Origin: Oscillospiraceae bacterium
GTDB lineage: Bacteria; Bacillota; Clostridia; Oscillospirales; CAG-272
NCBI GenBank assembly: GCA_015065065.1
Contig: SVQX01000003.1
Coordinates: 21,930 to 85,929, forward strand
Length of the DNA: 64,000 nt
Direction: 5' to 3'
The position numbers were made by a program, and so were the translations under genes. Shown piece by piece: positions 6,997 to 61,500 of the stretch. Below the pieces are notes generated by a model. That model had not been told where the DNA came from, did not search any database, and was given only the letters and a program-made list of their open reading frames with translations. How positions within the stretch are numbered: the first letter of the stretch is position 1; the number at the start of each line of letters is the position of its first letter.

Positions 6997-7184
6997 GTTC
7001 GCCTACGGCGAGTGAAGTTGCTGCGCAGTGAAGTTTCGGCTACTGCCGAAGTGAAGTTTGCGCCACGAGTGGCGCAAGTGAGAAGTAACTTTGGGGTGAA
7101 CTTAACTTCACTTTGCGACGAAGGAGCAAAACTTCACTGTGAACGAAGTGAACGACTTCACTTTTGCGTAGCAAAAACTTCACC
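6952..7184 (+). repeat. Direct repeat copy A (233 bp): last 45 nt of rlmD plus a palindromic GTGAAGT/ACTTCAC hairpin module
   Basis: About 92 percent identical to 9390-9623, and the first ~70 nt are identical. Contains hairpins TTCGGCTACTGCCGAA and TGCGCCACGAGTGGCGCA, three GTGAAGT motifs and four ACTTCAC motifs. Confidence 0.9.
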
Positions 7185-7286
7185 AAAAGTCAGGGACAAA
7201 TGTGAGTTTCGAGCAAAACTCGAAAATACAATTTACAGCAGTTTAGTATAACATATCGAAGTTTCTATAAAGGAGGTGTAAGGCCT

Positions 7287-9328: not shown

Positions 9329-9330
9329 GA

Positions 9331-9623: not shown

Positions 9624-9646
9624 AATAATCCCAAAGGAGAAAAGCT

Positions 9647-10012
9647 ATGAAAGATTCAGAACTGCGAACAATAGCAAAAGCTCTTGCTCTACATATAATC
9701 GCCGTCTGCGATGAGATAGATACTCGCAAAGGCAGAGGTGTGCTCGTAAATCAAATTATCAGAAGTGCGACCTCTATAGGAGCAAATATTCACGAAGCGA
9801 ATTATGCGGCAAGTAAAGCTGATTTTATAAACAAATTTCATATCGCACTCAAAGAATGTGGAGAAACCGAATATTGGGTTGAAATGCTCGTTGGCTCAAA
9901 TGCAATAAGCGAACAAATCGCAAAAGAACTTTTGCAGGACTGTGGTGTCATTCGCCGTATGCTTGTAAAATCCATCACCACCGCAAAGGGAAACGCTAAC
10001 GGGCAAACGTGA
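9647..10012 (+). CDS. four-helix-bundle protein (23S rRNA intervening-sequence protein / Avd-like family)
   Basis: Family signature IIRSATSIGANIHEANYAASKADFINKFHIALKECGETEYWVEML. Confidence 0.8.
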   Translation: MKDSELRTIAKALALHIIAVCDEIDTRKGRGVLVNQIIRSATSIGANIHEANYAASKADFINKFHIALKECGETEYWVEMLVGSNAISEQIAKELLQDCGVIRRMLVKSITTAKGNANGQT

Positions 10013-10080
10013 TTTTCGAGCAAAACTCGAAGCTCTAATTTACAGTTGTTTAAAATAACTTATCAAAGGATGTGGCTGAT

Positions 10081-40280: not shown

Positions 40281-41297
40281 TCAGTTAGCCTGCGCGTCGG
40301 GCGCGTAGGCCATAAGATCAATGATAGCCTCGTTTGAGAGGATCTCGGCGGTGATGTTGGTTTTCCAGCCCGCAGTGCCGCGCTGGTTGAGAGGATCGGC
40401 AGTGCCGGCGCTTCCGAGCTGCTTGACGATAGTCTCGACACCGCCCTCACCCGCCTCGGTAACGCCGTAAGCGCCAAGACCGATAACGAAGGTGTGAGCA
40501 ACCATACCGCCCGCTTCCTCTGTCACAAGAGCCTCGGTAGACTCAACGAAGCGACAGCCGTCTATCTTGCCAATCTCGCCCGTAAAGAGCTTGTTAGCAT
40601 CCGTGTACTTATGCCACTCAACGAAGGTGGGATCCTTGGTCTTGAGATAGAACGCAGTCCACGGGTGAATGATAGCAACGTAGCAGCCGCCGTCCAGAGG
40701 CTGAATGTTGTTAGCCTTCATCTTGGTGACCGCGCGCATGATATCCTTCACCTTCAGCTCGCAGCCCGCCACGATATTATCAATATCGTCAATGGCAGTC
40801 TCCGAGCCGTCAGCCGCCACCTTGGTCGCAAAGGAGGCGTTAGTGGTAGTCGCCAGCACGTTGCGCACGACGGTATCGCGGGAAAGTCCCGCCTGATCGC
40901 CCTGAAGCTTTACAGTCTCGGCAAGCAGAGGATCAATGGCGGTGAGCTGCACGAAGTCGGACAGCTCCACGTAATCGCCGTACTGCTGAACGGTCGCAGT
41001 AAGAGTCGTGACCTTCAGCGAGCTGCCGCCGGGAGTAACGCCCTCGCGCAGAGGCTCGGTCACCTTGGGCAGACGCTCAAAGCGACGGAACTCCACCGTC
41101 TTGCCGTTGCCCTTCGGGATGGGCTTTTTCTGACCGAACTGCTCGTGCACGAGTCGCGGCTTTGCGGACTCAAGCAGCGCCTTGTCGTAAAATACCTTCA
41201 TTTCGGGCGACAGATCCGCCGTCGCCGTAGTCATAGTGTTGTCTGCAAAAAGCTGCAGATTAAGGATGATATCATCCCTGAGTCGAATGTTAAACAT
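40281..41297 (-). CDS. major capsid protein (N4-gp56-like family, from memory)
   Basis: DLSPEMKVFYDKALLESAKPRLVHEQFGQKKPIPKGNGKTVEFRRFERL. Sits downstream of the scaffold gene. The N-terminus carries LNLQLFA. Confidence 0.7.
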   Translation of the reverse strand: MFNIRLRDDIILNLQLFADNTMTTATADLSPEMKVFYDKALLESAKPRLVHEQFGQKKPIPKGNGKTVEFRRFERLPKVTEPLREGVTPGGSSLKVTTLTATVQQYGDYVELSDFVQLTAIDPLLAETVKLQGDQAGLSRDTVVRNVLATTTNASFATKVAADGSETAIDDIDNIVAGCELKVKDIMRAVTKMKANNIQPLDGGCYVAIIHPWTAFYLKTKDPTFVEWHKYTDANKLFTGEIGKIDGCRFVESTEALVTEEAGGMVAHTFVIGLGAYGVTEAGEGGVETIVKQLGSAGTADPLNQRGTAGWKTNITAEILSNEAIIDLMAYAPDAQAN

Positions 41298-41374: not shown

Positions 41375-41432
41375 GATTTTCGCCGCATCGAAAATCCTCC
41401 TCACTTTTTCACTATTACTTCTTACCTCTCAC
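41375..41432 (+). repeat. hairpin-plus-heptad element, family 1, variant hairpin
   Basis: GATTTTCG-CCGCAT-CGAAAATC, followed by CTCCTCAC TTTTTCAC TATTAC TTCTTAC CTCTCAC. Confidence 0.75.
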
Positions 41433-41437
41433 CTCGA

Positions 41438-42337
41438 TCACGTAAACGTGATCTGCTCCCCTCGCTCTGCTCTGCGGATGTATTCATTGATCTGCTCCAT
41501 GGACAGCTTGGAGGGATCTACCTTTACGCTGGACGGTACATTCGCCCTTGCTCCGCTCTCTGACGGACGCATGCCGTTTTGACGCACACGGTTTGCCACC
41601 GCGTCCTCGCCCTTCTTGGATGCGTACTTCATAGCCGCGGGAACAAGAGTGTCCCTATGTGCGATCTCGTAGGCGTCGCGCATGCTGTAGCCGATATCAA
41701 GCAGATTTTTAAACCGCTCACCCTCAAGCTCGGTGCGCAAGTCGAAATTCTTGTAGATCGCCTTGACGCTCTTTGCTTCCTCCAGAAGCGCCGCATACTC
41801 TGCCGCCGCCGTCGCCTCCGCCTCGGCGCGCTCGCGCGCGGCCGCCTGCGTTCTGAGCGACTCCATTTCATTTATGGTTTCAAGAGGAACGCCCGTCTCG
41901 TCAGCGCGCGCTTGGTTGTAGGTATTATCGGCATTAAAAGCCTTCAGAAGTGCCTCCGTATCCCCGGCCTTGACGCCGTAGCGCGTCGCAAGCTTGTCAA
42001 GGATGGGAAGCGCCGCTTCGTAGGATTTTGCCTTTTGCCCGAGGGTACGGGTGCGCCCCGTTACCGCCTTTTTCACACGCGCGTCATAAAGGTCCTTGTA
42101 ATCGCCCTTGATAAGCCGCTCAAACTCCGCCTCACGGTCGGGAGTCCCGGCTTGTCCGGCTTCAGCGTCAGCACCGACGTTATCGGTACCGCTGTCCGTG
42201 TTGTTTGTCAGCCCGGCGTCGGCTGCCTCTGCCCCCGCAGGAGCATTTCCGCCCGTTGCACCGCCAGCGACCGCCGCTCCATCCGCAAAGAACTGGAGGC
42301 CGAGCCTGACGGGCATTTTAAAAGTAGTATCGAACAT
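41438..42337 (-). CDS. scaffolding protein
   Basis: Ala/Glu-rich helical protein between the portal/Prp genes and the capsid gene. The N-terminus carries LGLQFFA. Confidence 0.65.
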   Translation of the reverse strand: MFDTTFKMPVRLGLQFFADGAAVAGGATGGNAPAGAEAADAGLTNNTDSGTDNVGADAEAGQAGTPDREAEFERLIKGDYKDLYDARVKKAVTGRTRTLGQKAKSYEAALPILDKLATRYGVKAGDTEALLKAFNADNTYNQARADETGVPLETINEMESLRTQAAARERAEAEATAAAEYAALLEEAKSVKAIYKNFDLRTELEGERFKNLLDIGYSMRDAYEIAHRDTLVPAAMKYASKKGEDAVANRVRQNGMRPSESGARANVPSSVKVDPSKLSMEQINEYIRRAERGEQITFT

Positions 42338-42435: not shown

Positions 42436-42501
42436 GTAAAGTAAAAAGTAATAGTGAAAAGTGAATAGGTGATGTGGATTTCCGCCACGGCGGAAATCCA
42501 C
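42436..42501 (-). repeat. hairpin-plus-heptad element, family 1 (inverted orientation)
   Basis: GTAAAAA GTAATA GTGAAAA GTGAATA, then a 12-bp-stem hairpin GTGGATTTCCGC-CACG-GCGGAAATCCAC at 42474-42501. Confidence 0.85.
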
Positions 42502-42503
42502 CT

Positions 42504-42623
42504 GCACACGCTTCGCGTGGTGCGACTCTCAACTCTCAACTCTCAACTACCAACTATCAACTCTCAGCTACCAACTATCAACTACCAACTATCAACTCTC
42601 AACTACCAACTCTCAACTCTCAA
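42504..42623 (+). repeat. hairpin GCACACGC-TTC-GCGTGGTGC followed by 14 phased 7-nt repeats (CTNNCAA)
   Basis: Units from 42526: CTCTCAA x6, CTACCAA x4, CTATCAA x3 and CTCTCAG x1, with no phase break. Confidence 0.9.
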
Positions 42624-42944
42624 CTTGACATGCTCCGCCACGTCCCGCGCCAGCACCGAGTACCCCGTCATTATCACCTCAGCATATTCCGTAAGCCTGT
42701 GCCACGCCACACCGTCCAAGGCAACCGCTCGCAGGTGCGCCTCCCCGTCCTGAATGTGATACTGCACCTTCACGCCGTAGCCGCAGTCATCAAGCGCCGC
42801 AAAGCTCTGTGCCGCCGTGTAAAACAAGGTGGAAATGCCGGCACACACAATGTCAGAGCCTAAATTTGCAAAGCCCGCGTGACCGAATATGTCGATCGTA
42901 AATATCATTCGCGCATCGTCTGCGCGTATCTCAATATTCGTCAT
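42603..42944 (-). CDS. prp: Prp-family cysteine protease (ribosomal L27-processing type), phage-encoded
   Basis: FGHAGFANLGSDIVCAGISTL matches the GHA...D.VCA.VS His/Cys signature of Prp (DUF464). The last 7 codons and the stop lie inside the heptad array. Confidence 0.75.
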   Translation of the reverse strand: MTNIEIRADDARMIFTIDIFGHAGFANLGSDIVCAGISTLFYTAAQSFAALDDCGYGVKVQYHIQDGEAHLRAVALDGVAWHRLTEYAEVIMTGYSVLARDVAEHVKLRVESW

Positions 42945-42947
42945 ACG

Positions 42948-44900
42948 TTATACCGGAGACGTGGTCGCCGCACTCCTCTCCCGCGCCTTTCTCGTCACGT
43001 GTGATTCGCCCTCCGCCCCGTCTGCTGTAGGGACAGGCGTCCTCGACTGTCCGTCTGTGACAGGCGTCCTCTGTCCGCTTATCCTTCCCGCGCCGCCGCT
43101 CGCCGCCAGCTCGGGTGCTATCTGCGCCACCATAGCGGAGTAATTCGTACCGCTCGACGCATCAACCGTCTGCGCCAGAGCAAACGCCATCTGCTGAAGC
43201 TGTATCAGCTTTTGATAAAGCGTGCCGTTTCGCATGATCTTCTGCATCACCATGTCCTTGCGGTCAAAGTCCATCATATCAAGGCAGGCAAGAGATGCGT
43301 CCGCATTCTGCGGGTTGAAAAATCCCGCGTTCAGGAATTGAAGCGCCATTTCATTCTGCGCGAGCCGGCTGTACGGGCTCTGCTTTTCGGCAGAGATCTC
43401 AATATCAAATACGGGAGAACGGTATACAGGCTGACCGTCCGAGTCAATACCCGCAGGCTGCGGCTTTATTTTCTCGTTGGAATAGCGGATAAAGGTCTCC
43501 GCTCCGCCATCCCCTACCACGCGGAAATAATGCGGAGTGTCGTAGAACTGACGTATCAGCTCGATAACCAGCTCTACAATGCGGCGGAAAGCGCGATAAG
43601 TGCCCTTGTTTGAGTCACGTGACCGTTTGCCGCCCGCCTCCTGCATGGCGGCAATACCGGACGCCGTGGTAACTCCGGAGGTAGTGCCGCCGTTGGATAC
43701 GTCGCGGTTACCCGTGACCTCCTTGAGCTCCTCAACCTTGCCCGTAAGCACGTTTAAGTAAATTGCTGACAGCGGCTTTGTCTGAAGCGGCTGTATCGCG
43801 TTTGGATCTCCCGTGTAATGCACGACCTTCTTTTTTCGGTCAAGCAGCTCACCCTCGTTGATGCCCGCCGCCTCGCTTCCGAAATATCGGGAGGATGAGC
43901 CGTCAAGCATGTTTTCCATAACTGCCTGCGAGCCGCGGTCTATGTATTCCTGAGGACTCTTGCCGATATCTATATAACCAAAACCTGCAGGCGTACCCTC
44001 ACAGGGAATGAGAATGTCCAAAACGAAGGGATACTTACCGTGATCGTATAGTCCCCTCTCTGCCGCTTGAGGATCGTTTTCCGTCGCATATAAAACCTCC
44101 GTGTTGATAAATTTGCAAAAGTGAAGTACGGTTTTGCCACCAACCGTCTTTTTGTAATACCAGTCGATAACGGCGCTCTTTTCAGCGGTATTTATACTGT
44201 CGTCGTGGATGTATTCGCCGACAGCCACGTTTCTGCCGCCAAGCTTGCCGCGAAGCTGCGGATACATTCCCTCCAGCAGCTTGTTGTCGTAAAGAGTAAC
44301 AAGAAATATGTTTTGCGAGTCCTGAATATCCGTGATACTCGGCTCCCAGAACAGATTGAGCACGTCAACGTCCTTAACCGTTATCTCGCCAAGCCCACCC
44401 GCAGCTGTCGCGTCCCAGAACACACCGTACACACTCGTGCCGTGCTTGAGCTTGGGATAGAGCGCGCGTGAATAGATTTCCTCAAACCCTATGTGATCGA
44501 ATATAACGGGCACGATTGAGGAAAGGATCTTGGCTTCACTCACGTCCCCCTCCTCTCGCGGTACGATATTCGGTCGAGGATAGTTATCCATGCCGTCCGC
44601 GTGCTTACTCAGAATGGAATCGAGCAGCCATGCAGAGGTAGGCTCTACCTCCTCAGGAATGTCGTTGCCGTTCTCGTCCTTTCTGTTTTTCCGCAAAGCT
44701 GCCCAGTGGCGCAAGCGGAACCACTCCTCATCCTCAATTATGCGCGCGTCAAGGTTAGCCTTGCCCGCCTTGTATTTTTGGAAAAGCTCCATAGCATCGC
44801 GGAGCTGTACCTCCCCTATAGGTAATTCCCGCGCCGCCCCCTCGACCTGCATATCCGCCCCCTGCTGCTCCGCTCTCAATATTTCATCTGCAAAATCCAT
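42948..44900 (-). CDS. portal protein
   Basis: ATG 44900 follows AAAGGAGA. The call rests on size (650 aa) and position between terminase and Prp/scaffold. No specific motif recognised. Confidence 0.6.
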   Translation of the reverse strand: MDFADEILRAEQQGADMQVEGAARELPIGEVQLRDAMELFQKYKAGKANLDARIIEDEEWFRLRHWAALRKNRKDENGNDIPEEVEPTSAWLLDSILSKHADGMDNYPRPNIVPREEGDVSEAKILSSIVPVIFDHIGFEEIYSRALYPKLKHGTSVYGVFWDATAAGGLGEITVKDVDVLNLFWEPSITDIQDSQNIFLVTLYDNKLLEGMYPQLRGKLGGRNVAVGEYIHDDSINTAEKSAVIDWYYKKTVGGKTVLHFCKFINTEVLYATENDPQAAERGLYDHGKYPFVLDILIPCEGTPAGFGYIDIGKSPQEYIDRGSQAVMENMLDGSSSRYFGSEAAGINEGELLDRKKKVVHYTGDPNAIQPLQTKPLSAIYLNVLTGKVEELKEVTGNRDVSNGGTTSGVTTASGIAAMQEAGGKRSRDSNKGTYRAFRRIVELVIELIRQFYDTPHYFRVVGDGGAETFIRYSNEKIKPQPAGIDSDGQPVYRSPVFDIEISAEKQSPYSRLAQNEMALQFLNAGFFNPQNADASLACLDMMDFDRKDMVMQKIMRNGTLYQKLIQLQQMAFALAQTVDASSGTNYSAMVAQIAPELAASGGAGRISGQRTPVTDGQSRTPVPTADGAEGESHVTRKARERSAATTSPV

Positions 44901-44914
44901 ATTTATAAATTCTC

Positions 44915-44967
44915 CTTTCAACTTTCAATTTTCAATTCACTTTCAACTCTCAACTATCAACTCTCAA
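44915..44967 (+). repeat. heptad tract without an adjacent hairpin
   Basis: CTTTCAA CTTTCAA TTTTCAA (TTCA) CTTTCAA CTCTCAA CTATCAA CTCTCAA. Confidence 0.8.
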
Positions 44968-45236
44968 CTCCGCATTATCTCCACCCTCGCTCTGCCCGGA
45001 GGCGTTGTGAGATCCTCGCGCCTGATGTTCAGCGCGTCGAATATCCTTCCCTCAAGGGGACCGCGTCGCGCCGCATTCATCCTGGGCGCTATCGGTCGCA
45101 TCATGCAGAAATACCGTGCTTCGTCGGCACAGTTATGCGCGACCACGCCGCCCTGTATGACAAAATCATGTGTATCCGCTACTTCCATGTTGTATACGTC
45201 ACGCTCTCCAACGTAGCTTACCGACTTAACTTTCAT
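44964..45236 (-). CDS. terL: terminase large subunit, C-terminal fragment: 35-aa C-intein plus C-extein
   Basis: MKVKSVSYVGERDVYNMEVADTHDFVIQGGVVAHN|CADEARYFCMM. This shows the canonical intein block G (VAHN followed by Cys+1) and the terminase DxxRY-type motif. Confidence 0.8.
   Translation of the reverse strand: MKVKSVSYVGERDVYNMEVADTHDFVIQGGVVAHNCADEARYFCMMRPIAPRMNAARRGPLEGRIFDALNIRREDLTTPPGRARVEIMRS
45132..45236 (-). other. split-intein C-half (IntC, 35 aa)
   Basis: Same length class and sequence pattern as DnaE-type IntC. The Cys+1 codon lies at 45129-45131. Confidence 0.75.
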
Positions 45237-45738
45237 TCAGCTCCTCCTTTATCCTGTTGCGGCGAAACGAAGCACGGCAGTTCTGATGACAAAAACGGTT
45301 CGCGCCTTCAACGTATACATGCCGTGTTTGAAACGACTTTCCGCAAAAGGTGCATACATATTCACGTAGCGGAGCCTTTTCCCAATATTCTTTTGCGTGC
45401 GCTCCATGCCACGCCGCACCCTCTACGCTCCCATGCCACGCAGAAGCATATTTGAGTGCCTTTTTAATGTCACGTCGGCTTTGTTCAACACGTTCGGGGG
45501 ATTTCATATGTTTTCGCTGATGCTCTTTACCTTGCATCATGCACAGATTAGATATGGAATTGTTATGCCTATCGCCGTCTATATGGTGGATATCAAATCC
45601 CTTTGGAATACTGCCATTGTGGTATTCCCACACCGCTCGATGCAGTCTTTTGCCTTTGCGTTGAAAATAAGCTCCGCACAGGTAAAACATTTCTCCGTTA
45701 AATTCCTGTTTGGTATTGCTTATCACGTTTACCTGCAT
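45226..45738 (-). CDS. free-standing HNH homing-endonuclease-like gene between the intein halves
   Basis: ATG 45738 follows GGAGGTG. Motif HRAVWEYHNGSIPKGFDIHHIDGDRHNNSISNL (HNH), plus a C-terminal CxxC...CxxxC. It overlaps both flanking ORFs by about 10 nt. Confidence 0.8.
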   Translation of the reverse strand: MQVNVISNTKQEFNGEMFYLCGAYFQRKGKRLHRAVWEYHNGSIPKGFDIHHIDGDRHNNSISNLCMMQGKEHQRKHMKSPERVEQSRRDIKKALKYASAWHGSVEGAAWHGAHAKEYWEKAPLREYVCTFCGKSFQTRHVYVEGANRFCHQNCRASFRRNRIKEELNES

Positions 45739-47312
45739 ATCCGCACCTCCGTTTTGTTGGGTAGCATATCTTTTATTCGTACCCACGTTCCGTCCTCTCT
45801 CATTATCCGGTGATCTTCTGTGCCCTCAAAAACTGTTCCATCCTCAAGCTCTACACGATATACCTTGGCTTTTCTTCTCGTCATACGAACGTCAGAAAAA
45901 CGGTGATATTCGCCATCATGCGATAATACCAATCCTTCCTTCCCCACCAAGCGTTCAATCGGTACATAGCCTTCATCAGTACGAATGAGCGTATCCCCAA
46001 CAAGACAGTGGTCCTCGCCCGAGGAATCCACGTCCTCCACACGCACGTCGTCAAACTGAAGCGCGGGCAGGGTGCGGATGAAGTCGCGGCAGTTATTGAA
46101 TACGTACATCTGCGCAAAGCCCTCCTCGTCAAAGCTGAGGCGGTAATGCAGCTGCATCCAGCCGGGTATGCGCTCGTGATCTCCCTTGTTAAAGTAAACG
46201 CGCCGAGACGCGGCAACCTCCGCTATTGACGGGCCGCCGTTCTGCGCCCAGATAGCGGGATCGGCAACACCGATTATCTGTTTACCCTTTAGCCACCTGT
46301 GTTCCCTCTCGGTACGCGCTATCTCCTCAAATATCCGTTCGTTGTTCCACTTAACACCCGTGTCGGGACTGCTCTCCTTGCAACCGTAAAGCTCAAGGAT
46401 GCGGTACGCCACACCCTGATAATCCACAGCCCACCAGCCACAGGAGAAGGGCTTGGCATATCCCCAGTCGAAGCTACGGTATATGTTCCAACCGTCCGGA
46501 ATATCGAAAGGCTTGATAACGTGCGTCCACCGTCTGTCCTCGTAGTGGGCGGGATCGTTTTTCCATTCTGCGAATACCTGCCCCGTGTAGCTGTCCCAAT
46601 TTCCGTAAAGCAGAGCCTCGCGCTCTGCCTCGGGCATTGACGCAAGCCTTGTAATGTACTCGGGATTTGCATCAAGCAACGCCTTGTTGTCAAATACGCT
46701 GGCAGGGATAAATATGCGGGAGAGCCGTCCAACCACTCGCTTGCCCTCGGGGGTAACGTACTCGTGATCCGTCCACATTGTAGTCATTGGCGGCGCGGGA
46801 GTAATGAATCTGTCCTTTACCCATCCGTGACCGACTCCTCCGGGGTTTGCGGATGCGCGGATATAGCACCGCGTGCCGGGACCGTTTGGACGGTTACGGG
46901 ATATCAGATAGATGTATTCCTCAAGTGTAAAATGTGTCAGCTCGTCAAAGGCGATATAGTCGTAAGCGCGACCTTGGTATTTGAGCTTGTCCTGAGTGCG
47001 GTGCAGATCTCCGAAAATGACCTTCGCACCGCTCGGAAAGGTCCACGAATGCTTTGCCTCGTTGTACTTTGCCTTCGGATATATCAGCGGATAGTAGTTC
47101 TGACTTTTGCCGATAAGCTCCTCAAGCTCAGGGTACGTCTTACGGAGAAGCAGCCCCTTGTAGTGCGGTATGTCTACCTGACGGAGGGCTTCAAGCACCA
47201 AAGCCTCCGACTTTCCGCCCCCCGCCGCTCCGCCGTAAAGCGCTTCATATTCCGCCCGCGCCATAAATGCCGCCTGCCTCGGCTGCGGCGACCAAACCAC
47301 GTTCTTACCCAT
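45729..47312 (-). CDS. terL: terminase large subunit, N-terminal fragment: N-extein plus 92-aa N-intein
   Basis: ATG 47312 follows AAGGAGG. Walker A LYGGAAGGGKSEAL and Walker B YDYIAFDELTHF. The intein starts at GEDH|CLVGDTLIRTDEG (Cys1 codon 46005-46007), with an in-frame stop 92 aa later. Confidence 0.85.
   Translation of the reverse strand: MGKNVVWSPQPRQAAFMARAEYEALYGGAAGGGKSEALVLEALRQVDIPHYKGLLLRKTYPELEELIGKSQNYYPLIYPKAKYNEAKHSWTFPSGAKVIFGDLHRTQDKLKYQGRAYDYIAFDELTHFTLEEYIYLISRNRPNGPGTRCYIRASANPGGVGHGWVKDRFITPAPPMTTMWTDHEYVTPEGKRVVGRLSRIFIPASVFDNKALLDANPEYITRLASMPEAEREALLYGNWDSYTGQVFAEWKNDPAHYEDRRWTHVIKPFDIPDGWNIYRSFDWGYAKPFSCGWWAVDYQGVAYRILELYGCKESSPDTGVKWNNERIFEEIARTEREHRWLKGKQIIGVADPAIWAQNGGPSIAEVAASRRVYFNKGDHERIPGWMQLHYRLSFDEEGFAQMYVFNNCRDFIRTLPALQFDDVRVEDVDSSGEDHCLVGDTLIRTDEGYVPIERLVGKEGLVLSHDGEYHRFSDVRMTRRKAKVYRVELEDGTVFEGTEDHRIMREDGTWVRIKDMLPNKTEVRICR
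45732..46007 (-). other. split-intein N-half (IntN, 92 aa)
   Basis: Block A CLVGDTLI and a block-B-like GTEDHRI. It ends at a stop codon, not at an endonuclease domain. Confidence 0.75.
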
Positions 47313-47341
47313 GCATTCCTCCTTAATGAATAATTGACGTG

Positions 47342-47400
47342 GATTTCCGCCACAGCGGAAATCGTCCTTCACTATTCACTTTTCACTCTTCACTCTTCAC
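47342..47400 (+). repeat. hairpin-plus-heptad element, family 1
   Basis: GATTTCCGC-CACA-GCGGAAATC, then CCTTCAC TATTCAC TTTTCAC TCTTCAC TCTTCAC. The terS stop (47390-47392) lies inside the heptads. Confidence 0.85.
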
Positions 47401-47848
47401 TTTTTTCGTCTATCATTTCCGCCAACGGCAGCATCACAGTTCCACCCTGCACCGCATCAACAGATACCTCGACCTTGTCGCGCCAGCGCTCGGGGTTGCG
47501 GTTGTTCAGCCAATATTTCTGCGCGCGGAAATCCGCAGGGAGAACTACCACCTTGTCCTCGACAAGCTCCTTTATCTCACCGTTCTTGTCAAGCACCTGC
47601 TTGTGAAGCTTGACGACCTGTGTGCGATCAAAGCAACACTTGTATATCTCCTTTTCCACCGCCTCGCACTTTTCGCGGTCGTAGAGTACGGAGCGAATAA
47701 CGTCGCTCTTTTTGCACCAACGGTTAAGTGTTGTGCGGGTAATTCCTATACGTCTGGCAATTTCGCCGAGATCCAGCGTAGCCCACTGACGTAACCGCTC
47801 AAGACCTTCACCGCCGGTATATTCCTCAATGCTGACTCCGCGAGCCAT
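47390..47848 (-). CDS. terS: terminase small subunit (HTH)
   Basis: ATG 47848 follows GGAGGTGAGCGG. HTH LGEIARRIGITRTTLNRWCKK. Lies immediately upstream of terL. Confidence 0.6.
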   Translation of the reverse strand: MARGVSIEEYTGGEGLERLRQWATLDLGEIARRIGITRTTLNRWCKKSDVIRSVLYDREKCEAVEKEIYKCCFDRTQVVKLHKQVLDKNGEIKELVEDKVVVLPADFRAQKYWLNNRNPERWRDKVEVSVDAVQGGTVMLPLAEMIDEKSEE

Positions 47849-47881
47849 CCGCTCACCTCCTCTTTTTTGCTTTCTGCCTGC

Positions 47882-47911
47882 ATTATAGCAGAAAATAAAA
47901 AATAATGTCAC
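47882..47911 (-). promoter_or_regulatory. candidate late-operon promoter
   Basis: On the minus strand: GTGACA, an 18-nt spacer, then TATAAT, directly downstream of a terminator hairpin. Confidence 0.4.
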
Positions 47912-47925
47912 ACCACCCCTTGACA

Positions 47926-47968
47926 TAGAAAAAAGGCAAGCCCCACAAGGGAAAACTTGCCTTTTTAA
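47926..47968. terminator. bidirectional hairpin terminator between the early and late modules
   Basis: AAAGGCAAG...CTTGCCTTT with A/T runs on both sides. Confidence 0.6.
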
Positions 47969-48088
47969 AAAAATAATATATTTTGGCGCCACAAGTTGGG
48001 AATGCCTTATCTAAAGCCTCTCCCCACGGGAGAGGTGGCGGCGTAGCCGACGGAGAGGGCGCCTCACCCTTCGGGAGAAGTATAGGAA

Positions 48089-48113
48089 GTAGGGGCGATT
48101 CACGAATCGCCCG
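48089..48113. repeat. host-type REP palindrome inside the prophage
   Basis: GTAGGGGCGATTCACGAATCGCCCG, the same unit as at 8354-8427. Confidence 0.85.
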
Positions 48114-48116
48114 CCG

Positions 48117-48338
48117 TTAATCACCAGGATACTTCTCCTTGAGCGCCCAAAATAGCCCGCAGTCCCAATACCGCGCGCAACAATACGTCCGCGTAAACCG
48201 TTCTAACTCCGCGCGCGACGAAAAGACGAGGTGGGTAGAGCATTTTTCGCACACTCCCTCGCATTTTAACTTTTTTTCCTTCGGCAAAGCCTTCTTGTAG
48301 AACGGACAGCGCACGTCGGCATCAATGTAATTACTCAT
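48117..48338 (-). CDS. small Cys-rich protein (73 aa)
   Basis: ATG 48338 overlaps the upstream stop (ATGA). MSNYIDADVRCPFYKK...CEGVCEKC. Confidence 0.5.
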   Translation of the reverse strand: MSNYIDADVRCPFYKKALPKEKKLKCEGVCEKCSTHLVFSSRAELERFTRTYCCARYWDCGLFWALKEKYPGD

Positions 48339-49255
48339 CACACCACCTCCGCGTACCGCTCGCGCATCCGCCTCAGCTCCGCTGCCTCCGACCGGCGGCG
48401 CTTTGCCTCCCGCCGCCCGGGATCGGTGTCGCGGCGGTATAGCTTGATATGTATAACCCACTCACGGAATTGCTCAATGTAGATCGCCTCCGCCTCGGAC
48501 ATATAATATCCTGGATAGCGGGACTCCACGGGCGCATATCGCTCCTCTGTGGTCTCTACTCCCTTTCCAACTCCCGCATTGATATCCTCAATAGCACGCG
48601 CCAGCTCATCCGTCGCCTCGGCGGAAATACCGGCGTTAAGCTCAGCATACCCGGTGCGCTCCAAATTGCGCGAGCCATACCAGCGATGCTCACCGTTAAT
48701 GCGCCCCTGCTTTGTAAGATAAGCGGAAAGCGCCTCAAATCCGTTGCTGCTTGCCTGAAGCGTGCGCACGTTAACAATATCAGCCATCCCCCACAGCTCG
48801 CGGATGCGGGACTCCGAGAGCCCGCCCGTCATAAGAAGGTGAGGATGCATTCGCTTACCGTCGCCACCTTCGATAACGTAGAGATATTTGAACTCGCGCA
48901 CCGCCTCAAATGCATTGTTGGAAAGAATATTGAGGGCAACGTGCGCCCTCTTTACACGTCGAAGGAAATTGCGCATCAGAAGGCGCACCTCCGCTCTGGT
49001 GGCGGGATAGTGTGCCTCATCAAAGGTAAGCGTTATGTATAAGTCGCGTCCGTCCTCAAAATTCGCGTTGACGATACGGTTCAGATTCATAATGGCGTTG
49101 CGCTCATTCACGCGCGCCTGTGCCTCACTCGTAGCCTTACCGAGAGCGCGGGGCTGACGTCGCTTGCCCTTTACTCGGTAAAGCAACGTGTCGCAGAACC
49201 CAAGCCCCATATTGTACGACGTCTCCCGTGTATATCTTATATCACCGTTTGCCAT
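48338..49255 (-). CDS. HUH-type rolling-circle Rep-like protein
   Basis: Three motifs in canonical order: LYITLTF (motif I), MHPHLLM (HUH-like) and SAYLTKQ (YxxK). Confidence 0.55.
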   Translation of the reverse strand: MANGDIRYTRETSYNMGLGFCDTLLYRVKGKRRQPRALGKATSEAQARVNERNAIMNLNRIVNANFEDGRDLYITLTFDEAHYPATRAEVRLLMRNFLRRVKRAHVALNILSNNAFEAVREFKYLYVIEGGDGKRMHPHLLMTGGLSESRIRELWGMADIVNVRTLQASSNGFEALSAYLTKQGRINGEHRWYGSRNLERTGYAELNAGISAEATDELARAIEDINAGVGKGVETTEERYAPVESRYPGYYMSEAEAIYIEQFREWVIHIKLYRRDTDPGRREAKRRRSEAAELRRMRERYAEVV

Positions 49256-49549
49256 ATTTTCTCCTCTTTTTTATTTTCCGCGCAGGCGGATATATGGGGC
49301 GCCGCCCCACACCCCGCAAGCCTTTCTTTCGAGAAAGGCTTGACCGAAAGAACTTGCCCGCAAATTATTTTTGTCTAAATTTGTTTACGATGGTTACAAC
49401 CGCAACCATCTCTATAACCCCCGTGGGACCCTCTCCCACCGGGCTATTTAATTTTCAATTTTCAATTCGCATAATATGTATCGCGTGTGCGCGCACCGCC
49501 GCCCGCGCCCGCCGCTCTGCACGTTTGTAACATTCCCACCGACCGCGCG

Positions 49550-51441: not shown

Positions 51442-51821
51442 ACAGTGTCCTCCGTATATTTCTTTTCAAGCTTTGCAAAATCGGCAGGATCTATGCACCA
51501 AAACGGCTCTTTTTCAATTTCAACCATTCCTTCGCGTACAACGGGAAAAACGTGCATTTTTGCGAGATCCTTAAGCTCCTCGAAAATTCGTTCCGCGACA
51601 TTGGTCTGCTTGCGGTAGCCCAACTGCGTTATAATATACCGTGCGATACTCGTTTCTTCATCTTCGTATGCATTTCCTGACAAACGGCTTAATACATCAA
51701 ACCCTATTTTCTCGTTGTCAAGTTTTCTAATTCGCAGGGAGTGCGCCATTTCTTCGATTTCTTCTTCCGTAATTTTCAATTTGGGCACCACGCTTGGCGT
51801 GGTGCGATTTTCAATTTTCAC
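51438..51821 (-). CDS. phage early protein whose first ~18 codons are encoded by a hairpin repeat
   Basis: GTG 51821 overlaps the stop of the upstream micro-ORF (GTGA). N-terminus MKIENRTTPSVVPKLKITE. Confidence 0.5.
   Translation of the reverse strand: MKIENRTTPSVVPKLKITEEEIEEMAHSLRIRKLDNEKIGFDVLSRLSGNAYEDEETSIARYIITQLGYRKQTNVAERIFEELKDLAKMHVFPVVREGMVEIEKEPFWCIDPADFAKLEKKYTEDTV
51765..51820 (+). repeat. 56-bp repeat, copy 1: hairpin GCACCACGC-TTG-GCGTGGTGC flanked by AATTTTC-type heptads
   Basis: Near-identical to 52518-52573. Confidence 0.9.
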
Positions 51822-51958
51822 TTCTCCTCACCTCTTTTGCCTAATACCTTAACCATCAATTTTATGGCATCTCGGCAACCGTTTATCTTTGCAATACTTG
51901 AATTCGCTGTACACTTGCCTTTGTGATTTGACAAGGGACAAAAATCGCATTTACACAT
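51818..51958 (-). CDS. 46-aa Cys-rich micro-ORF (not in the ORF track)
   Basis: MCKCDFCPLSNHKGKCTANSSIAKINGCRDAIKLMVKVLGKRGEEK. Translationally coupled at both ends (TGATG and GTGA overlaps). Confidence 0.45.
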   Translation of the reverse strand: MCKCDFCPLSNHKGKCTANSSIAKINGCRDAIKLMVKVLGKRGEEK

Positions 51959-52260: not shown

Positions 52261-52574
52261 TCCTCCGCACCGCCTTTCTCGGTTGGGAGGTCAGTCCAAT
52301 CAAGAGCCTGTCCGCATCTGCAATGATGGTCATTAGGAAATAAACTTCTATGGCAAGTCGGACAATGCTCTTTTTCGTAAACACCGTTGTCATTGTCAAG
52401 ATACGGCTTTTTTGAAATCTGTTTTTCAAGCGCCTCAACAGCCATATCTAATGCTTCGCACAAAATTATGTATCCGCTTGTAGGTTTGTTACACTTTATT
52501 GCGTTGATAGCTTCCGCTTCCGTAATTTTCAATTTGGGCACCACGCTTGGCGTGGTGCGATTTTCCATTTTCAT
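52257..52574 (-). CDS. zinc-ribbon-like phage protein whose N-terminus is encoded by the hairpin repeat
   Basis: ATG 52574 overlaps the upstream stop (ATGA). N-terminus MKMENRTTPSVVPKLKITE. Cys motif CPTCH...CRCG. Confidence 0.55.
   Translation of the reverse strand: MKMENRTTPSVVPKLKITEAEAINAIKCNKPTSGYIILCEALDMAVEALEKQISKKPYLDNDNGVYEKEHCPTCHRSLFPNDHHCRCGQALDWTDLPTEKGGAEE
52518..52573 (+). repeat. 56-bp repeat, copy 2
   Basis: See 51765-51820. Confidence 0.9.
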
Positions 52575-52819
52575 TTCTTAACCCCCTTCAGCCCAAGCAC
52601 CACGTACCCCTCCTTGCAGTATTCGCGGTTGTCCAGCACGTAGCTTACCTTCTTTTTAACCTCTCGCCCGGTGTAGGAGCCTCGGTCGTACTCTCTGAGG
52701 TTGAGGATATCCCCAACCTCAAAATTACGGTCGTTGTACCGTACCTCAAAGGGCTTTTTGCCGTTCTTTACGTCATCAAAATACACCGATGAGATCTTCA
52801 GATCGTGTGTTTTTGCCAT
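52571..52819 (-). CDS. DUF3850 / ASCH-PUA-like small protein
   Basis: HDLKISSVYFDDVKNGKKPFEVRYNDRNFEVGDILNLREY. Confidence 0.7.
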   Translation of the reverse strand: MAKTHDLKISSVYFDDVKNGKKPFEVRYNDRNFEVGDILNLREYDRGSYTGREVKKKVSYVLDNREYCKEGYVVLGLKGVKK

Positions 52820-52839: not shown

Positions 52840-52901
52840 GATTTCCGCCGCACAGGCGGAAATCATCCACCACTTTTCACTTTTCACTATTAACTATTAA
52901 C
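52840..52901 (+). repeat. hairpin-plus-heptad element, family 1
   Basis: GATTTCCGCC-GCACA-GGCGGAAATC, then TTTTCAC TTTTCAC TATTAAC TATTAAC. Confidence 0.85.
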
Positions 52902-52907
52902 TCTCTC

Positions 52908-60522: not shown

Positions 60523-60605
60523 AAATCTAAAAATAGATTTTGTCAATAGAAAAAATCTATTTTTAGAGTTTTCTACCTTTTGCCTAAAATCTAAATTTAG
60601 AATTT
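60523..60605. promoter_or_regulatory. operator triad upstream of the cI-like gene
   Basis: Three TCTA-N4-TAGA palindromes at 60526-60537, 60556-60567 and 60590-60601. Confidence 0.65.
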
Positions 60606-60630
60606 GTTAAAAACAAACAAGGAGGTTTTT

Positions 60631-61500
60631 ATGTTTTACACCAACCTGCAAAAAATATGCAAAGAGCGCGGCACAACGCCAACAGCCGTGGCCAAAGCCA
60701 TAGGTATCAGCACATCTATGACTGCCAATTGGAAGAAAGGCGGTATGCCGCGTGGCGACACCCTGCAAAAGCTCGCCTCTTATTTCGGCGTAACCACCGA
60801 CTACCTACTCGGTTCCGAGTTGACAACCATTGCTTTTGCAGAACCTAATGAACTTAACGGATACACTATGTTCAAACAAAATTTCATTCGACTGTGTAAT
60901 CAAAAAGGCGAATCCCCTTCGGCTGTATGCATTAAGGTAGGCATAACCCCTGCCACTTTTTCCTGCTGGACGGACGAGTCCGTTCCGCGTAAAGCAACCC
61001 TTATGAGAATAGCCGACTATTTCGGCGTATCTGTTAACTACCTGCTCGGCACCGAAAAAGAAAACGCGCCCGGCATAAAACCGAACGCAATATTTTTGGA
61101 GGAAAAGAATGTCCACCTCATCCCCGTGTACGAAACTGTGTCCGCAGGCTTCGGTGCTTTGGCGGATAACAGCATAATTGATTATACCCCCCTCTATTTC
61201 ACAAGCGCGGCAGAGGCGGCGGAGACCATCTGCATAAAGGTCAAGGGAGACAGCATGTACCCCAAGATCGAGGAAGGCGACGTAATACAGGTGCATAAAA
61301 CGGATAGCGTTGACAGCGGCACTATTGCCGTCGTGCTGCTTGACGGCGACGAGGGACTTGTCAAGCGCGTGGAGTACGGCGAAAGCTTTATCGAGCTGCA
61401 GTCCATAAATCCTATGTACCCGCCCATGCGCTTTGAGGGAGCCGATACGCTCCGCATCCGCATCCTCGGCGCGGTAAAGAAAATTATCAAGAGTATCTAA
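60631..61500 (+). CDS. cI/LexA-like repressor with two tandem HTH domains and an S24 peptidase domain
   Basis: ATG 60631 follows GGAGG. HTH 1 TAVAKAIGISTSMTANW and HTH 2 SAVCIKVGITPATFSCW. Motifs VKGDSMYP and LVKRV (Ser/Lys dyad). Confidence 0.8.
   Translation: MFYTNLQKICKERGTTPTAVAKAIGISTSMTANWKKGGMPRGDTLQKLASYFGVTTDYLLGSELTTIAFAEPNELNGYTMFKQNFIRLCNQKGESPSAVCIKVGITPATFSCWTDESVPRKATLMRIADYFGVSVNYLLGTEKENAPGIKPNAIFLEEKNVHLIPVYETVSAGFGALADNSIIDYTPLYFTSAAEAAETICIKVKGDSMYPKIEEGDVIQVHKTDSVDSGTIAVVLLDGDEGLVKRVEYGESFIELQSINPMYPPMRFEGADTLRIRILGAVKKIIKSI

What the first reader, a model, noticed from the sequence alone, without database searches (positions are those of the whole stretch)
47342..47400. 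A ~60-bp hairpin-plus-TTCAC-heptad element occurs four times in the prophage, in both orientations, always at gene junctions
The copies are at 41375-41432 (scaffold/capsid gap, variant stem GATTTTCG), 42436-42501 (Prp/scaffold gap, inverted), 47342-47400 (terS/terL junction) and 52840-52901 (DUF3850/DUF3102 gap). The consensus is GATTTCCGCC-N4-5-GGCGGAAATC, 3-9 nt, then 4-5 units of NNTTCAC (TATTCAC, TTTTCAC, TCTTCAC). Because one copy is inverted relative to transcription, they are unlikely to be simple terminators. The GTGAAGT/hairpin alternation downstream of rlmD (7010-7090) has the same logic, so this may be a host-genome-wide element family that colonises the phage. Alternatively the sites could be recognised by a phage protein. 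The copy at the terS/terL junction raises the possibility of a pac-type site.
Basis: partly seen in the sequence, partly recalled or inferred. Interest (0 to 1): 0.65.

Follow-up and report, generated by a model that had tools for sequence, protein, structure and literature searches.

The report
Hairpin-plus-heptad intergenic repeats in a prophage
The four copies are real members of a dispersed family of intergenic repeats (a conserved GC-topped hairpin joined to arrays of 7-base units), found in gut Clostridia chromosomes and some of their phages and inserted into this prophage's gene junctions; they are not a DNA-packaging site and do not look like ordinary terminators here.

Summary
The hairpin GATTTCCGC(C)-N4-7-(G)GCGGAAATC occurs three times exactly (0 expected). 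A fourth copy carries a compensatory stem change. All four lie in intergenic spacers.

The element is composite:
- Period-7 arrays fill six or seven junctions of the head/packaging region, three of them without the conserved hairpin.
- Eighty related phage loci (950 kb) have no heptad arrays, and their terS/terL and terL/portal genes overlap. The modules are therefore insertions.
- One relative (L249) has the same (GTGAAGA)n array at the terS/terL junction without the hairpin.

Wider distribution:
- Arrays of this sequence match hundreds of contigs per gut metagenome, and also metatranscriptome contigs. The hairpin does not.
- The same hairpin flanked by other heptads (purine/A-rich arm 5', complementary pyrimidine arm 3') sits between ordinary chromosomal genes in Clostridia MAGs.
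- There it is more conserved than the flanking genes at one orthologous locus, and it usually has a T-rich tail.

The prophage copies lack a T-tract on both strands.

Best reading: these are dispersed foldback repeats that are read through and act as intercistronic RNA hairpins with unstructured spacers. Function is inferred, not shown. The pac-site idea is not supported.

The parts
41375..41396 (.). Copy 1 hairpin, variant stem GATTTTCG / CGAAAATC with loop CCGCAT
   Evidence: It is a compensatory double change relative to the other three stems. It folds in the sense RNA.
41397..41437 (-). Copy 1 arm: irregular purine-rich units on the sense strand (GGTGAGA GGTAAGA AGTAATA GTGAAAA AGTGAGGAG). 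It begins 3 nt after the stop codon of the scaffold-like gene.
   Evidence: It aligns with the arms of copies 2 and 4 and of L002.
42436..42472 (+). Copy 2 arm. It reads GTGAA-type on the + strand and TTCAC-type on the sense strand, so this copy is inverted. It is the closest relative of the copy 1 arm.
42477..42498 (.). Copy 2 hairpin GATTTCCGCC-AC-GGCGGAAATC, extended to GTGGATTTCC...GGAAATCCAC
42503..42522 (.). Second small hairpin GCACACGC-TTC-GCGTGGTGC next to copy 2. It belongs to another 3-copy hairpin family.
42521..42626 (-). Array of about 14 heptads (GTTGAGA / GTTGATA / GTTGGTA on the sense strand). The stop codon of the Prp-like gene (42605-42603) lies inside it.
44915..44969 (-). 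Array of about 8 heptads (GTTGAGA...ATTGAAA) with no hairpin, running from the stop of the terL C-terminal ORF to the portal RBS
   Evidence: Relatives have terL and portal overlapping here.
47326..47341 (.). Copy 3 degenerate second arm (AATGAATAATTGACGT). In the predicted RNA fold it pairs with the hairpin-proximal heptads of the array.
47342..47363 (.). Copy 3 hairpin GATTTCCGC-CACA-GCGGAAATC, 17 nt upstream of the terL Shine-Dalgarno AAGGAGG
47365..47405 (-). Copy 3 array, five GTGAARA heptads on the sense strand. The terS stop codon (47392-47390) lies inside it.
   Evidence: Hundreds of metagenome contigs match this stretch. Relative L249 has the same array at the same junction.
49417..49470 (-). 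Short ATTGAAA array (2.6 units) followed by a different hairpin (GTGGGA-GAGGG-TCCCAC), upstream of the replication-initiation-like gene
52840..52864 (.). Copy 4 hairpin GATTTCCGCC-GCACA-GGCGGAAATC, extended by TGGA/TCCA, 20 nt upstream of the ATG of the ASCH-domain gene
52868..52906 (-). Copy 4 array (GTTAATA x2, GTGAAAA x2 on the sense strand), beginning 8 nt after the stop of the DUF3102-like gene
7000..7190 (+). Host-side foldback downstream of rlmD: four AGTGAAGTT 9-mers, then four AACTTCAC 8-mers, interleaved with small unrelated hairpins. It is duplicated at 9437-9630. It has the same polarity and core as the prophage arms but is not a period-7 array and lacks the conserved hairpin.

Best explanation
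The four copies belong to a dispersed family of foldback intergenic repeats. Each has a strongly pairing hairpin tip, GATTTCCGC(C)...(G)GCGGAAATC. This is flanked by arrays of 7-nt units that are purine-rich 5' of the tip and pyrimidine-rich 3' of it.

Shown:
- The family lives in the chromosomes of gut Clostridia (Oscillospirales-like MAGs) between ordinary genes, and in some phage contigs.
- In this prophage the modules are insertions into junctions that are overlapping or very short in relatives.
- Array and hairpin are separable modules.
- The prophage copies have no T-tract after the stem on either strand.

Inferred:
- The late operon is transcribed through the copies.
- On the mRNA each one gives a C-free, unstructured heptad tract. 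This tract starts at or in the upstream stop codon and carries stop codons in all three frames.
- It is followed by a stable 10-13-bp hairpin (longer where a second arm is present), placed 7-80 nt before the next ribosome-binding site.
- The likely effect is to uncouple neighbouring cistrons and to set a processing or stability boundary. The hairpin would act as a 5' or 3' protective structure. The long-stem versions would be double-strand-specific RNase substrates.
- In chromosomes the complete two-armed form, which has a T-rich tail, most likely works as a one- or two-directional intrinsic terminator. The prophage copies are versions tolerated inside an operon because they do not terminate it.

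How the copies spread is not known. Candidates are recombination between arrays, template switching, or a transposase acting in trans.
For: Repeat family:
- Three exact hairpins against 0 expected.
- A shared arm core across the four copies and L002.
- L002 shares no detectable protein with the prophage.

Insertion:
- There are no period-7 arrays in 80 related loci (950 kb), against 6 in this prophage.
- terS/terL and terL/portal overlap in relatives.
- The gene order is conserved with shorter spacers.

Separable modules:
- L249 (terL 62% aa identity) has (GTGAAGA)5 at the same junction without the hairpin.
- About 14% of heptad arrays found without reference to the hairpin have any adjacent hairpin, and those hairpins are diverse.
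- Metagenome depth is about 14,000 on the array against 6 on the hairpin.

Chromosomal context and constraint:
- The element lies between LacI/SDR, ABC-transporter, ADH and MatE genes, mostly at 3' ends of convergent or tandem genes.
- At the orthologous locus L029/L102 the element is about 91% identical (left arm 45/47), against 81-86% for the flanking genes. The unit number is the same.
- At the orthologous hairpins of L238/L245 there is a compensatory G>C / C>G change.

Polarity:
- Inverted pairs are always 5'-GTGAA...TTCAC-3' (20 against 0).
- In this hairpin family the hairpin is 5' of the pyrimidine arm 13-14 times against 1-2.

Terminator-like tails:
- 12 of 17 chromosomal copies have at least 5 T in 8 nt after the stem on at least one strand. 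All four window copies have at most 3 on both strands.

RNA level:
- Predicted sense folds are stable, with z = -3.2 to -4.3 for copies 2, 3 and 4. The full L002 element folds to -48.6 kcal/mol, z = -7.8.
- Arrays are purine-rich on the sense strand in 6 of 7 cases in the window.
- In 119 viral arrays a gene start follows within 60 nt in the GTGAA sense 27-40 times, against 14 in the TTCAC sense. The rate at random positions is 12.6%.
- Arrays of this sequence are present in metatranscriptome contigs.
Against: - No RNA data exist for this phage. Read-through, processing and stability effects are all inferred.
- Copy 1's sense fold is not better than shuffles (z = -1.4).
- The sense-strand bias of arrays is modest and based on crude gene calling.
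- Arrays also occur in the TTCAC sense upstream of genes and between divergent genes. No single RNA-level role fits all arrays.
- The perfect sequence identity of three stems beside unrelated loops goes beyond what a purely structural constraint needs. It hints at recognition by a protein or at a templated copying process.
- No target-site duplication or transposase was found.
- The reason for a 7-nt period is unexplained.
Confidence: 0.45

Rival explanations
1. They are intrinsic terminators. Complete two-armed copies would be bidirectional terminators. The one-armed prophage copies would stop antisense (+ strand) transcription through the late genes while letting the sense transcript pass.
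For: - The strict 5'-purine arm / hairpin / pyrimidine arm-3' polarity (20:0 and 13:1) is what an A-tract / hairpin / U-tract terminator requires.
- Chromosomal relatives lie at 3' ends of convergent or tandem genes, and 12 of 17 have T-rich tails.
- In L249 and in RNA contigs, arrays lie directly 5' of canonical terminators.
- In three of the four window copies the T-richer arm is on the antisense strand.
Against: - None of the four window copies has more than 3 T in the 8 nt after the stem on either strand, and the terminator scan does not call them.
- No + strand promoters that would need blocking are evident.
- Arrays in general are also found between divergent genes (16 of 135).
- Copy 2 has its pyrimidine arm on the sense strand, upstream of the scaffold and capsid genes. 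Termination there would be costly.
Confidence: 0.2
2. They have no function in the phage. The heptad arrays would be slippage-grown simple-sequence repeats. The hairpins would be quasi-palindromes kept perfect by template-switch correction. They would be tolerated only in spacers and in orientations that do no harm.
For: - Heptanucleotide units are reported as the commonest long simple-sequence repeats in prokaryotes, with polymerase slippage proposed as the cause (Mrazek et al. 2007 as summarised in PMC4679880; also PMC4692102).
- Unit sequences differ between genomes, and different arrays lie side by side.
- Relatives do well without them.
- Template switching can produce compensatory changes without selection (own knowledge).
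Against: - The element at the orthologous L029/L102 locus is more conserved than the flanking coding DNA, and the unit number is unchanged.
- The arrays show no length variation among the contig sets of runs X1 and X6, or in a 91%-identical variant in X7.
- The same GTGAAGA array persists at the terS/terL junction across 62% terL identity.
- Three stems are identical while their loops are unrelated.
- The strict arm polarity is not predicted by slippage.
Confidence: 0.2
3. They are binding sites for a sequence-specific protein. One option is a hairpin-recognising Y1 transposase of the REP/RAYT or IS200/IS605 kind that also mobilises them. Another is an RNA or ssDNA binder with a 7-nt footprint, such as a cold-shock-domain protein coating the heptads.
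For: - The stem sequence is invariant while loop length varies from 2 to 8 nt across genomes. This fits recognition of an extruded or single-stranded hairpin and not a rigid dimer on duplex DNA.
- Loops differ between otherwise identical loci (L102 against L393).
- GTGG precedes the stem in copies 2 and 3.
- A textbook REPIN-like GTAG doublet occurs in the host part, with a singlet in the prophage. REP-type mobilisation may therefore be active in this genome.
- Cold-shock proteins are among the heptamer binders proposed for the TAACTGA repeats (PMC4679880).
Against: - No transposase or RAYT gene is in the window.
- The hairpin is not multi-copy in the metagenomes that hold the phage.
- The flanking tetranucleotide is not consistent across copies.
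- Heptad unit sequences differ widely between genomes and even within a locus. This argues against one sequence-specific binder.
- There is no half-site clustering at the lysogeny switch.
Confidence: 0.12
4. The terS/terL copy is a pac-type packaging initiation site.
For: Only its position next to terS.
Against: - There are four homologous copies spread over 11.5 kb.
- The module is absent from 80 phages with homologous terL and from their terS/terL junctions.
- L249 has the array but not the hairpin there.
- The same hairpin occurs between chromosomal housekeeping genes.
- An HNH endonuclease gene sits beside terL. From own knowledge, this is typical of cos-type HNH-assisted packaging.
Confidence: 0.02

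Closest known systems
Heptanucleotide long simple-sequence repeats of prokaryotes: cyanobacterial STRR sequences and the TAACTGA repeats of Beggiatoaceae, Cyanobacteria and Bacteroidetes
   Same: Both are tandem 7-nt units, almost always intergenic and often ending a few nucleotides upstream of a start codon. Both are abundant in some lineages and absent from close relatives, and their function is unknown (PMC4679880; PMC4692102; STRR from own knowledge).
   Different: Here the arrays come as inverted pairs with fixed polarity around a conserved GC-topped hairpin. The unit sequence differs from genome to genome. They occur in Clostridia and their phages, which were not among the lineages described.
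REP / REPIN elements and other small palindromic intergenic repeats co-transcribed into mRNA (ERIC, BOX, Neisseria Correia/NEMIS)
   Same: Both are short palindromes with conserved stems and variable loops. They are dispersed in intergenic spacers of operons in both orientations and are transcribed into mRNA hairpins. Those hairpins can act as stability, processing or attenuation signals (PMC3184786 for the classes; roles from own knowledge).
   Different: No RAYT or transposase was found, the GTAG foot is inconsistent, and this hairpin has low copy number in the metagenomes. The arms are tandem heptads rather than unique sequence.
Bidirectional intrinsic terminators
   Same: Both have a GC-rich hairpin with an A-rich 5' flank and a T-rich 3' flank, and lie between convergent genes. 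Most chromosomal relatives meet a simple T-tail criterion.
   Different: The four prophage copies have no T-tract on either strand and lie inside an operon. The flanks are period-7 arrays of up to about 100 nt rather than short homopolymer tracts.
Intercistronic RNase III sites of phage polycistronic mRNAs (T7 R-sites, SP82 early RNA)
   Same: Both are hairpins placed between cistrons of a phage operon, repeated along the genome, and not terminators (own knowledge).
   Different: Cleavage is untested here. Three of the four stems are only 10-13 bp unless the degenerate arms pair. The same element also occurs in bacterial chromosomes.
Phase-variable 7-bp repeats (Haemophilus hmw1A promoter; phage-borne neuO)
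   Same: Both are heptanucleotide tandem repeats between or within expression signals that can tune expression by copy number (PMC8262952; PMC13001214).
   Different: No copy-number variation was seen between samples or between orthologous loci here. The units within an array are also not identical.

Membership tests
Intrinsic (Rho-independent) terminator | GC-rich stem-loop | tested here: met
   The stems are 9-13 bp with a CCGCC/GGCGG top.
Intrinsic (Rho-independent) terminator | U/T-tract immediately 3' of the stem | tested here: not met
   The window copies have at most 3 T in 8 nt on both strands, and the scan does not call them. The feature is met on at least one strand in 12 of 17 chromosomal relatives.
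Intrinsic (Rho-independent) terminator | Transcript 3' ends map to it | not testable with these tools
   Only DNA runs hold this phage. Metatranscriptome contigs of a relative locus were too sparse.
REP / REPIN (RAYT-mobilised) | Short imperfect palindrome with conserved stem and variable loop, intergenic, in both orientations | tested here: met
REP / REPIN (RAYT-mobilised) | Conserved 5' GT(A/G)G foot | tested here: inconclusive
   GTGG is present at copy 2 (both sides), copy 3 (one side) and L006. It is absent at copies 1 and 4.
REP / REPIN (RAYT-mobilised) | Tens to hundreds of copies per genome and a cognate RAYT gene | tested here: inconclusive
   No RAYT gene is in the window. The hairpin stays at phage-only depth in the metagenomes. 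One MAG (JAZRXG01) has it on at least four contigs. The whole host genome is not available.
MITE | Terminal inverted repeats with target-site duplication | tested here: inconclusive
   The arms are inverted arrays. No duplication could be defined because the nearest empty sites are at most 70% identical.
MITE | Presence/absence polymorphism at orthologous sites | tested here: met
   The modules are absent from 80 relatives at the same junctions. One related contig replaces 180 nt with 149 other letters.
MITE | Many near-identical full-length copies | tested here: not met
   The copies share the hairpin and about 25 nt of arm only. Arm length and unit order differ.
Heptanucleotide LSSR / STRR-like arrays | Tandem 7-nt units, intergenic, over-represented | tested here: met
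   Period 7 is the only enriched period. All arrays are intergenic.
Phase-variable simple-sequence repeat | Unit number varies between closely related strains | tested here: not met
   Array length is identical in the contigs of runs X1 and X6 that span an array, and in a 91%-identical variant. The unit number is the same in L029 and L102. The sampling is limited.
pac site | Single site near or within terS, conserved among phages with homologous terminase | tested here: not met
   There are four copies. The module is absent from relatives, and the hairpin is absent in L249.
pac site | Virion DNA ends map to it | not testable with these tools
   No virion sequencing reads are available.
Intercistronic RNase III processing site | Duplex of about 20 bp or more within a polycistronic transcript | tested here: inconclusive
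   Such duplexes are predicted for copy 2, copy 3 (9 + 12 bp with an internal loop) and L002 (about 45 bp). Copies 1 and 4 reach only 8-17 bp.
Intercistronic RNase III processing site | Cleavage in vivo or in vitro | not testable with these tools
   No RNA data are available.
Phage repressor/regulator operator set (stoperator-like) | Sites restricted to the phage and including the regulatory region | tested here: not met
   The same hairpin lies between chromosomal housekeeping genes. There is no site or half-site cluster at 59-60.6 kb.

The most novel reading that the evidence does not exclude
Heptanucleotide arrays with fixed purine-5'/pyrimidine-3' polarity around a hairpin would be a widespread, selectively maintained class of cis-element in gut Firmicutes and their phages. 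Their 7-nt register would be read by a protein with a 7-nt footprint, for example a cold-shock-domain chaperone or the YC-binding sites of Rho. That protein would switch the adjacent hairpin between terminating, processing and read-through states. The prophage would have recruited the host's own elements to tune its late operon.
Probability: 0.12. Interest if true: 0.8.

Novelty: new variant of a known kind. Interest (0 to 1): 0.5.

Why it matters
Small intergenic repeats (REP, MITE, STRR) are known, but little is known about them in the dominant gut Clostridia and their phages.

Here a definable module (hairpin tip plus period-7 arms of fixed polarity) has three notable properties:
- It is conserved more than the neighbouring genes at one orthologous chromosomal locus.
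- It is shared between bacterial chromosomes and unrelated phages.
- It has expanded into junctions that are translationally coupled in related phages.

The heptad arrays alone match hundreds of contigs per gut metagenome and are present in metatranscriptomes. If they act on transcription or mRNA fate, they would be a common but unannotated layer of gene-expression control in gut bacteria. They are also a practical nuisance, because contigs of this phage break at them.

The result also gives a concrete test bed. One prophage carries four hairpin copies, three hairpin-less arrays, and natural 'empty-site' relatives.

Tried and rejected
- Rfam: no family matches the elements at gathering threshold or at E <= 5.
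- Annotated phage collection: no near match to the 12-kb region.
- Composite pattern GGAAATC-N2-14-TTCACNNTTCAC in viral contigs: 46 hits, almost all chance, with only L002 convincing.
- Hairpin plus TTCAC in JGI metagenomes: 27 hits. Most are an unrelated CAG-GATTTCCGC...GCGGAAATC-CTG repeat from another organism or chance. Two are relevant (L393, L394).
- Expected chance matches of the bare hairpin pattern in 596 Gb are about 60 (my own arithmetic). Most non-Clostridia hits were therefore discounted.
- 'Stops in all three frames' as the purpose of the arrays: rejected, because TTCAC-sense arrays upstream of genes carry no stops.
- Chi-like recombination hotspots: considered and rejected. Unit sequences vary within arrays and between adjacent arrays, and Chi would not explain the fixed arm polarity.
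- Conservation of the element in a 91%-identical variant (X7): not usable, because the contig is a mosaic whose left part is nearly identical to the window throughout.
- Metatranscriptome contigs over the L102 locus: too sparse to place transcript ends.
- Literature searches found no description of this module.
- The host taxon could not be named. Contigs with the same host protein are unlabelled metagenome records.
Full report
**1. The observation**

- The palindrome GATTTCCGC-N2-8-GCGGAAATC matches exactly at 42477-42498, 47342-47363 and 52840-52864. None were found in 100 dinucleotide-preserving shuffles.
- The copy at 41375-41396 reads GATTTTCG...CGAAAATC, the same stem with a C>T change matched by G>A in the other arm.
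- The loops are unrelated in sequence and length.

An alignment shows that homology continues for about 45 nt on one side of the hairpin, with a shared core TTCACTTTTCACTATTA(A)C. These are therefore homologous copies of one element and not merely similar in design.

All prophage genes between about 22 and 59 kb are on the minus strand.
- major head: 40281-41297
- scaffold-like: 41438-42337
- Prp-like peptidase: 42603-42944
- portal: 42948-44921
- HNH endonuclease: 45226-45786
- terL: 45729-47324
- terS: 47390-47992
- ASCH 'RNA-binding' protein: 52571-52819

Every copy lies in a spacer between two of these genes.

**2. The element is composite and more extensive than reported**

Period 7 is the only tandem period that stands out in the window. 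Besides the four listed arms there are:
- 14 units of GTTGAGA/GTTGATA/GTTGGTA (sense strand) at 42521-42626;
- 8 units at 44915-44969 between the terL C-terminal ORF and portal, with no hairpin;
- a short ATTGAAA array with a different hairpin at 49417-49470.

On the sense strand six of the seven arrays are purine-rich and free of C. They begin inside or within 8 nt of the upstream stop codon and run to the hairpin or to the next Shine-Dalgarno sequence. Copy 3 has a degenerate second arm that pairs with the hairpin-proximal heptads of its array. Copies 1 and 2 are each other's closest relatives and flank the scaffold-like gene as an inverted pair.

**3. The modules are insertions**

Eighty viral contigs encoding a terL 43-69% identical to the window's were fetched with flanks.
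- In 950 kb they contain no period-7 array, while the same scan finds six in the window.
- In these relatives terS overlaps terL and terL overlaps portal. The scaffold/capsid spacer is about 45 nt, against 140 nt here.
- A related contig in another gut sample replaces 180 nt at the terS/terL junction with 149 different letters.
- The L006 group (terL 63-64% aa identity) carries the hairpin with GTGAA-type heptads at a different junction, upstream of the replication-initiation-like gene.
- L002 carries a copy 83% identical to copy 2 over the arm, by my own count of the aligned arms. It shares no detectable protein with the prophage.

**4. Arrays and hairpin are separable**

One of these, L249, is a relative of the window phage (terL 62%, HNH 54%, portal 41.5% aa identity). 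It has (GTGAAGA)5 at the same terS/terL junction, abutting GAGG-N6-ATG, with no hairpin.

Laying metagenome contigs on 47330-47410 shows 244, 108 and 186 contigs matching the array in three gut samples. Summed depth is 14,399, 3,201 and 8,038. The hairpin stays at the depth of the phage itself, 6.4, 4.1 and 0. Three gut metatranscriptomes hold 90, 42 and 21 contigs with the array. Among arrays found without reference to the hairpin, only about 14% have any neighbouring hairpin, and those hairpins are diverse.

**5. The hairpin family outside the phage**

The bare hairpin pattern is expected about 60 times by chance in the 596-Gb genome collection (my own arithmetic). Most of the 119+ hits are therefore uninformative. 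In gut and rumen Clostridia MAGs, however, at least 13 hits are flanked by heptad arrays of other sequences, such as AATGAAT, AGATAAT, AATTGAG, AAAGTGC and ATTTGCA. These arrays are purine/A-rich on the 5' side and complementary on the 3' side.

These copies lie between ordinary genes (LacI-type regulator, short-chain dehydrogenase, ABC transporter, alcohol dehydrogenase, MatE). They are mostly at the 3' ends of convergent or tandem genes.

L029 and L102 are the same LacI/SDR locus in two species. The element is about 91% identical (left arm 45 of 47, same number of units), while the flanking genes are 81% and 86% identical. L393, almost identical to L102, differs in the loop only. At another orthologous pair (L238/L245) the hairpin shows a compensatory G>C / C>G change.

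**6. Polarity and terminator features**

- Inverted array pairs are always 5'-GTGAA arm...TTCAC arm-3' (20 cases against 0).
- In the GATTTCCGC family the hairpin is 5' of the pyrimidine arm in 13-14 cases against 1-2.
- Twelve of 17 heptad-linked chromosomal copies have at least 5 T in the 8 nt after the stem on one or both strands.
- The four window copies have at most 3 on both strands, and the terminator scan does not call them.
- In L249, and in RNA contigs, arrays lie directly 5' of canonical terminators.
- In the viral set a plausible gene start follows within 60 nt in the GTGAA sense in 27-40 of 119 arrays, against 14 in the TTCAC sense. The rate at random positions is 12.6%. Sixteen of 135 arrays lie between apparently divergent genes.

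**7. Interpretation**

Identity is well supported. This is a dispersed foldback intergenic repeat family shared by Clostridia chromosomes and phages, built from two separable modules, and inserted into this prophage.

Function is inferred.
- The fixed polarity, the gene-3' positions and the T-rich tails suggest that complete chromosomal copies are one- or two-directional intrinsic terminators.
- The prophage copies lack the T-tract and sit inside the late operon. They are most simply read-through hairpins preceded by an unstructured spacer.
- Such hairpins would uncouple cistrons that are translationally coupled in relatives, and would mark a processing or stability boundary.
- Predicted sense-strand folds are stable for copies 2, 3 and 4 (z = -3.2 to -4.3). 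The full L002 element folds to -48.6 kcal/mol, z = -7.8.

Rivals are antisense or bidirectional termination, neutral slippage products, and protein recognition (REP/RAYT-like or a 7-nt-footprint binder). The identical stems beside unrelated loops, the tolerance of loop lengths from 2 to 8 nt, and the 7-nt period itself remain unexplained.

**8.

- The pac-site idea is not supported. There are four copies, none in relatives, no hairpin at that junction in L249, and the hairpin also occurs in chromosomes.
- A phage-specific binding protein is unlikely for the last reason, and because no half-sites cluster at the lysogeny switch.
- The structure downstream of rlmD shares the GTGAA/TTCAC core and the polarity. 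It is a different construction and is part of a duplicated, cassette-like region.

**9. Comparison with the known**

- Heptanucleotide units are reported as the commonest long simple-sequence repeats in prokaryotes.
- TAACTGA repeats upstream of start codons have been described in Beggiatoaceae, Cyanobacteria and Bacteroidetes (PMC4679880; also PMC4692102).
- 7-bp repeats tune hmw1A expression in Haemophilus (PMC8262952).
- REP, MITE and related small repeats are reviewed in PMC3184786.
- No paper describing a hairpin-plus-heptad foldback in Clostridia or their phages was found.
- No Rfam family matches.

I therefore rate this as a new variant of a known kind, of moderate interest.

Noticed in passing
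window 6951-10070: There is a cassette-like array downstream of rlmD. A 30-nt core that includes the last codons of rlmD (CACGTCGAGAGTGTCGTGTGTCTGACACG) occurs four times, at 6951, 8307, 9092 and 9389. Other boundary repeats are at 7194/8458/10001 and 8249/9033/9330. A 240-bp block (6950-7190 and 9390-9630) is duplicated around a low-GC (39%) 2.4-kb segment whose ORFs have no Pfam hits. The gene after the second block (9647-10012) is a PF05635 '23S rRNA intervening-sequence protein'. This looks like serial site-specific insertion at the rlmD 3' end.
   Followed up: partly
window 8354-8427, 48089-48114; L169 6432-6511: A REPIN-like element is present. Two inverted copies of GTAG-GGGCGATTCAYGAATCGCCC (96% complementary, 22-nt spacer) lie in the host cassette region. 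A single copy with the GTAG foot lies in the prophage spacer upstream of terS, and a doublet is in a related phage contig. Metagenome contig depth over 48089-48505 is about 300x against a baseline of about 8x. This palindromic repeat is found in both the host part of the window and the prophage.
   Followed up: partly
window 42503-42522, 51785-51805, 52538-52558: This is a third hairpin family, GCACCACGC-NNN-GCGTGGTGC. Two copies are part of a 57-nt repeat (51765-51822 and 52517-52574) that forms the predicted N-termini (ENRTTPSVVPKLKITE) of two neighbouring genes and is flanked by ATTGAAA units. It is unclear whether these N-termini are really translated.
   Followed up: partly
window 44964-47324: The large terminase is unusual. 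Residues 1-439 match relatives. An HNH endonuclease ORF follows (45226-45786). A separate 90-aa ORF (44964-45236) then carries the segment that forms the terL C-terminus in most relatives. The same terL/HNH/small-ORF layout is present in L249. No group I intron was detected by Rfam.
   Followed up: partly
window 42668-43084 and 48013-48075: Metagenome contig depth of 1,100-1,600x over 42668-43084 (start of the Prp-like gene and end of portal) is unexplained. The spacer at 48013-48075 holds a CCTCTCCC-GTG-GGGAGAGG hairpin with many loose contig ends, which suggests yet another multi-copy repeat.
   Followed up: no
window 49470-49500; L006 5780-5810: A conserved motif GCGCG...CGCGATACAT(W)TATGC lies upstream of the replication-initiation-like/terS block in both the window and the L006 phage group. 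It may be a late promoter or a regulator site.
   Followed up: no
window 61705-61901: A perfect 87-bp tandem repeat (2.3 copies, in frame) lies inside the gene for an Mrr-like restriction endonuclease (61516-62931). This gene is next to an S24-peptidase/HTH repressor gene (60604-61500).
   Followed up: no
L379, L382, L386, L376, L391 (metagenome contigs JADMIO01...): An unrelated organism carries CAG-GATTTCCGC-N4-5-GCGGAAATC-CTG three to four times per 10 kb, often beside ATTCACGAGCGCGAAGCGCGAGTGAAT hairpins. The same 9-bp stem therefore serves as a REP-like repeat elsewhere.
   Followed up: no
L031, L086 (Acidobacteriaceae MAGs), L045, L127: Heptad arrays of other compositions also turned up near chance hairpin hits: CAACTGA/CAACCGA and their complement, GGATGGT, and GTTGGGC. 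Period-7 arrays are therefore common across phyla.
   Followed up: no
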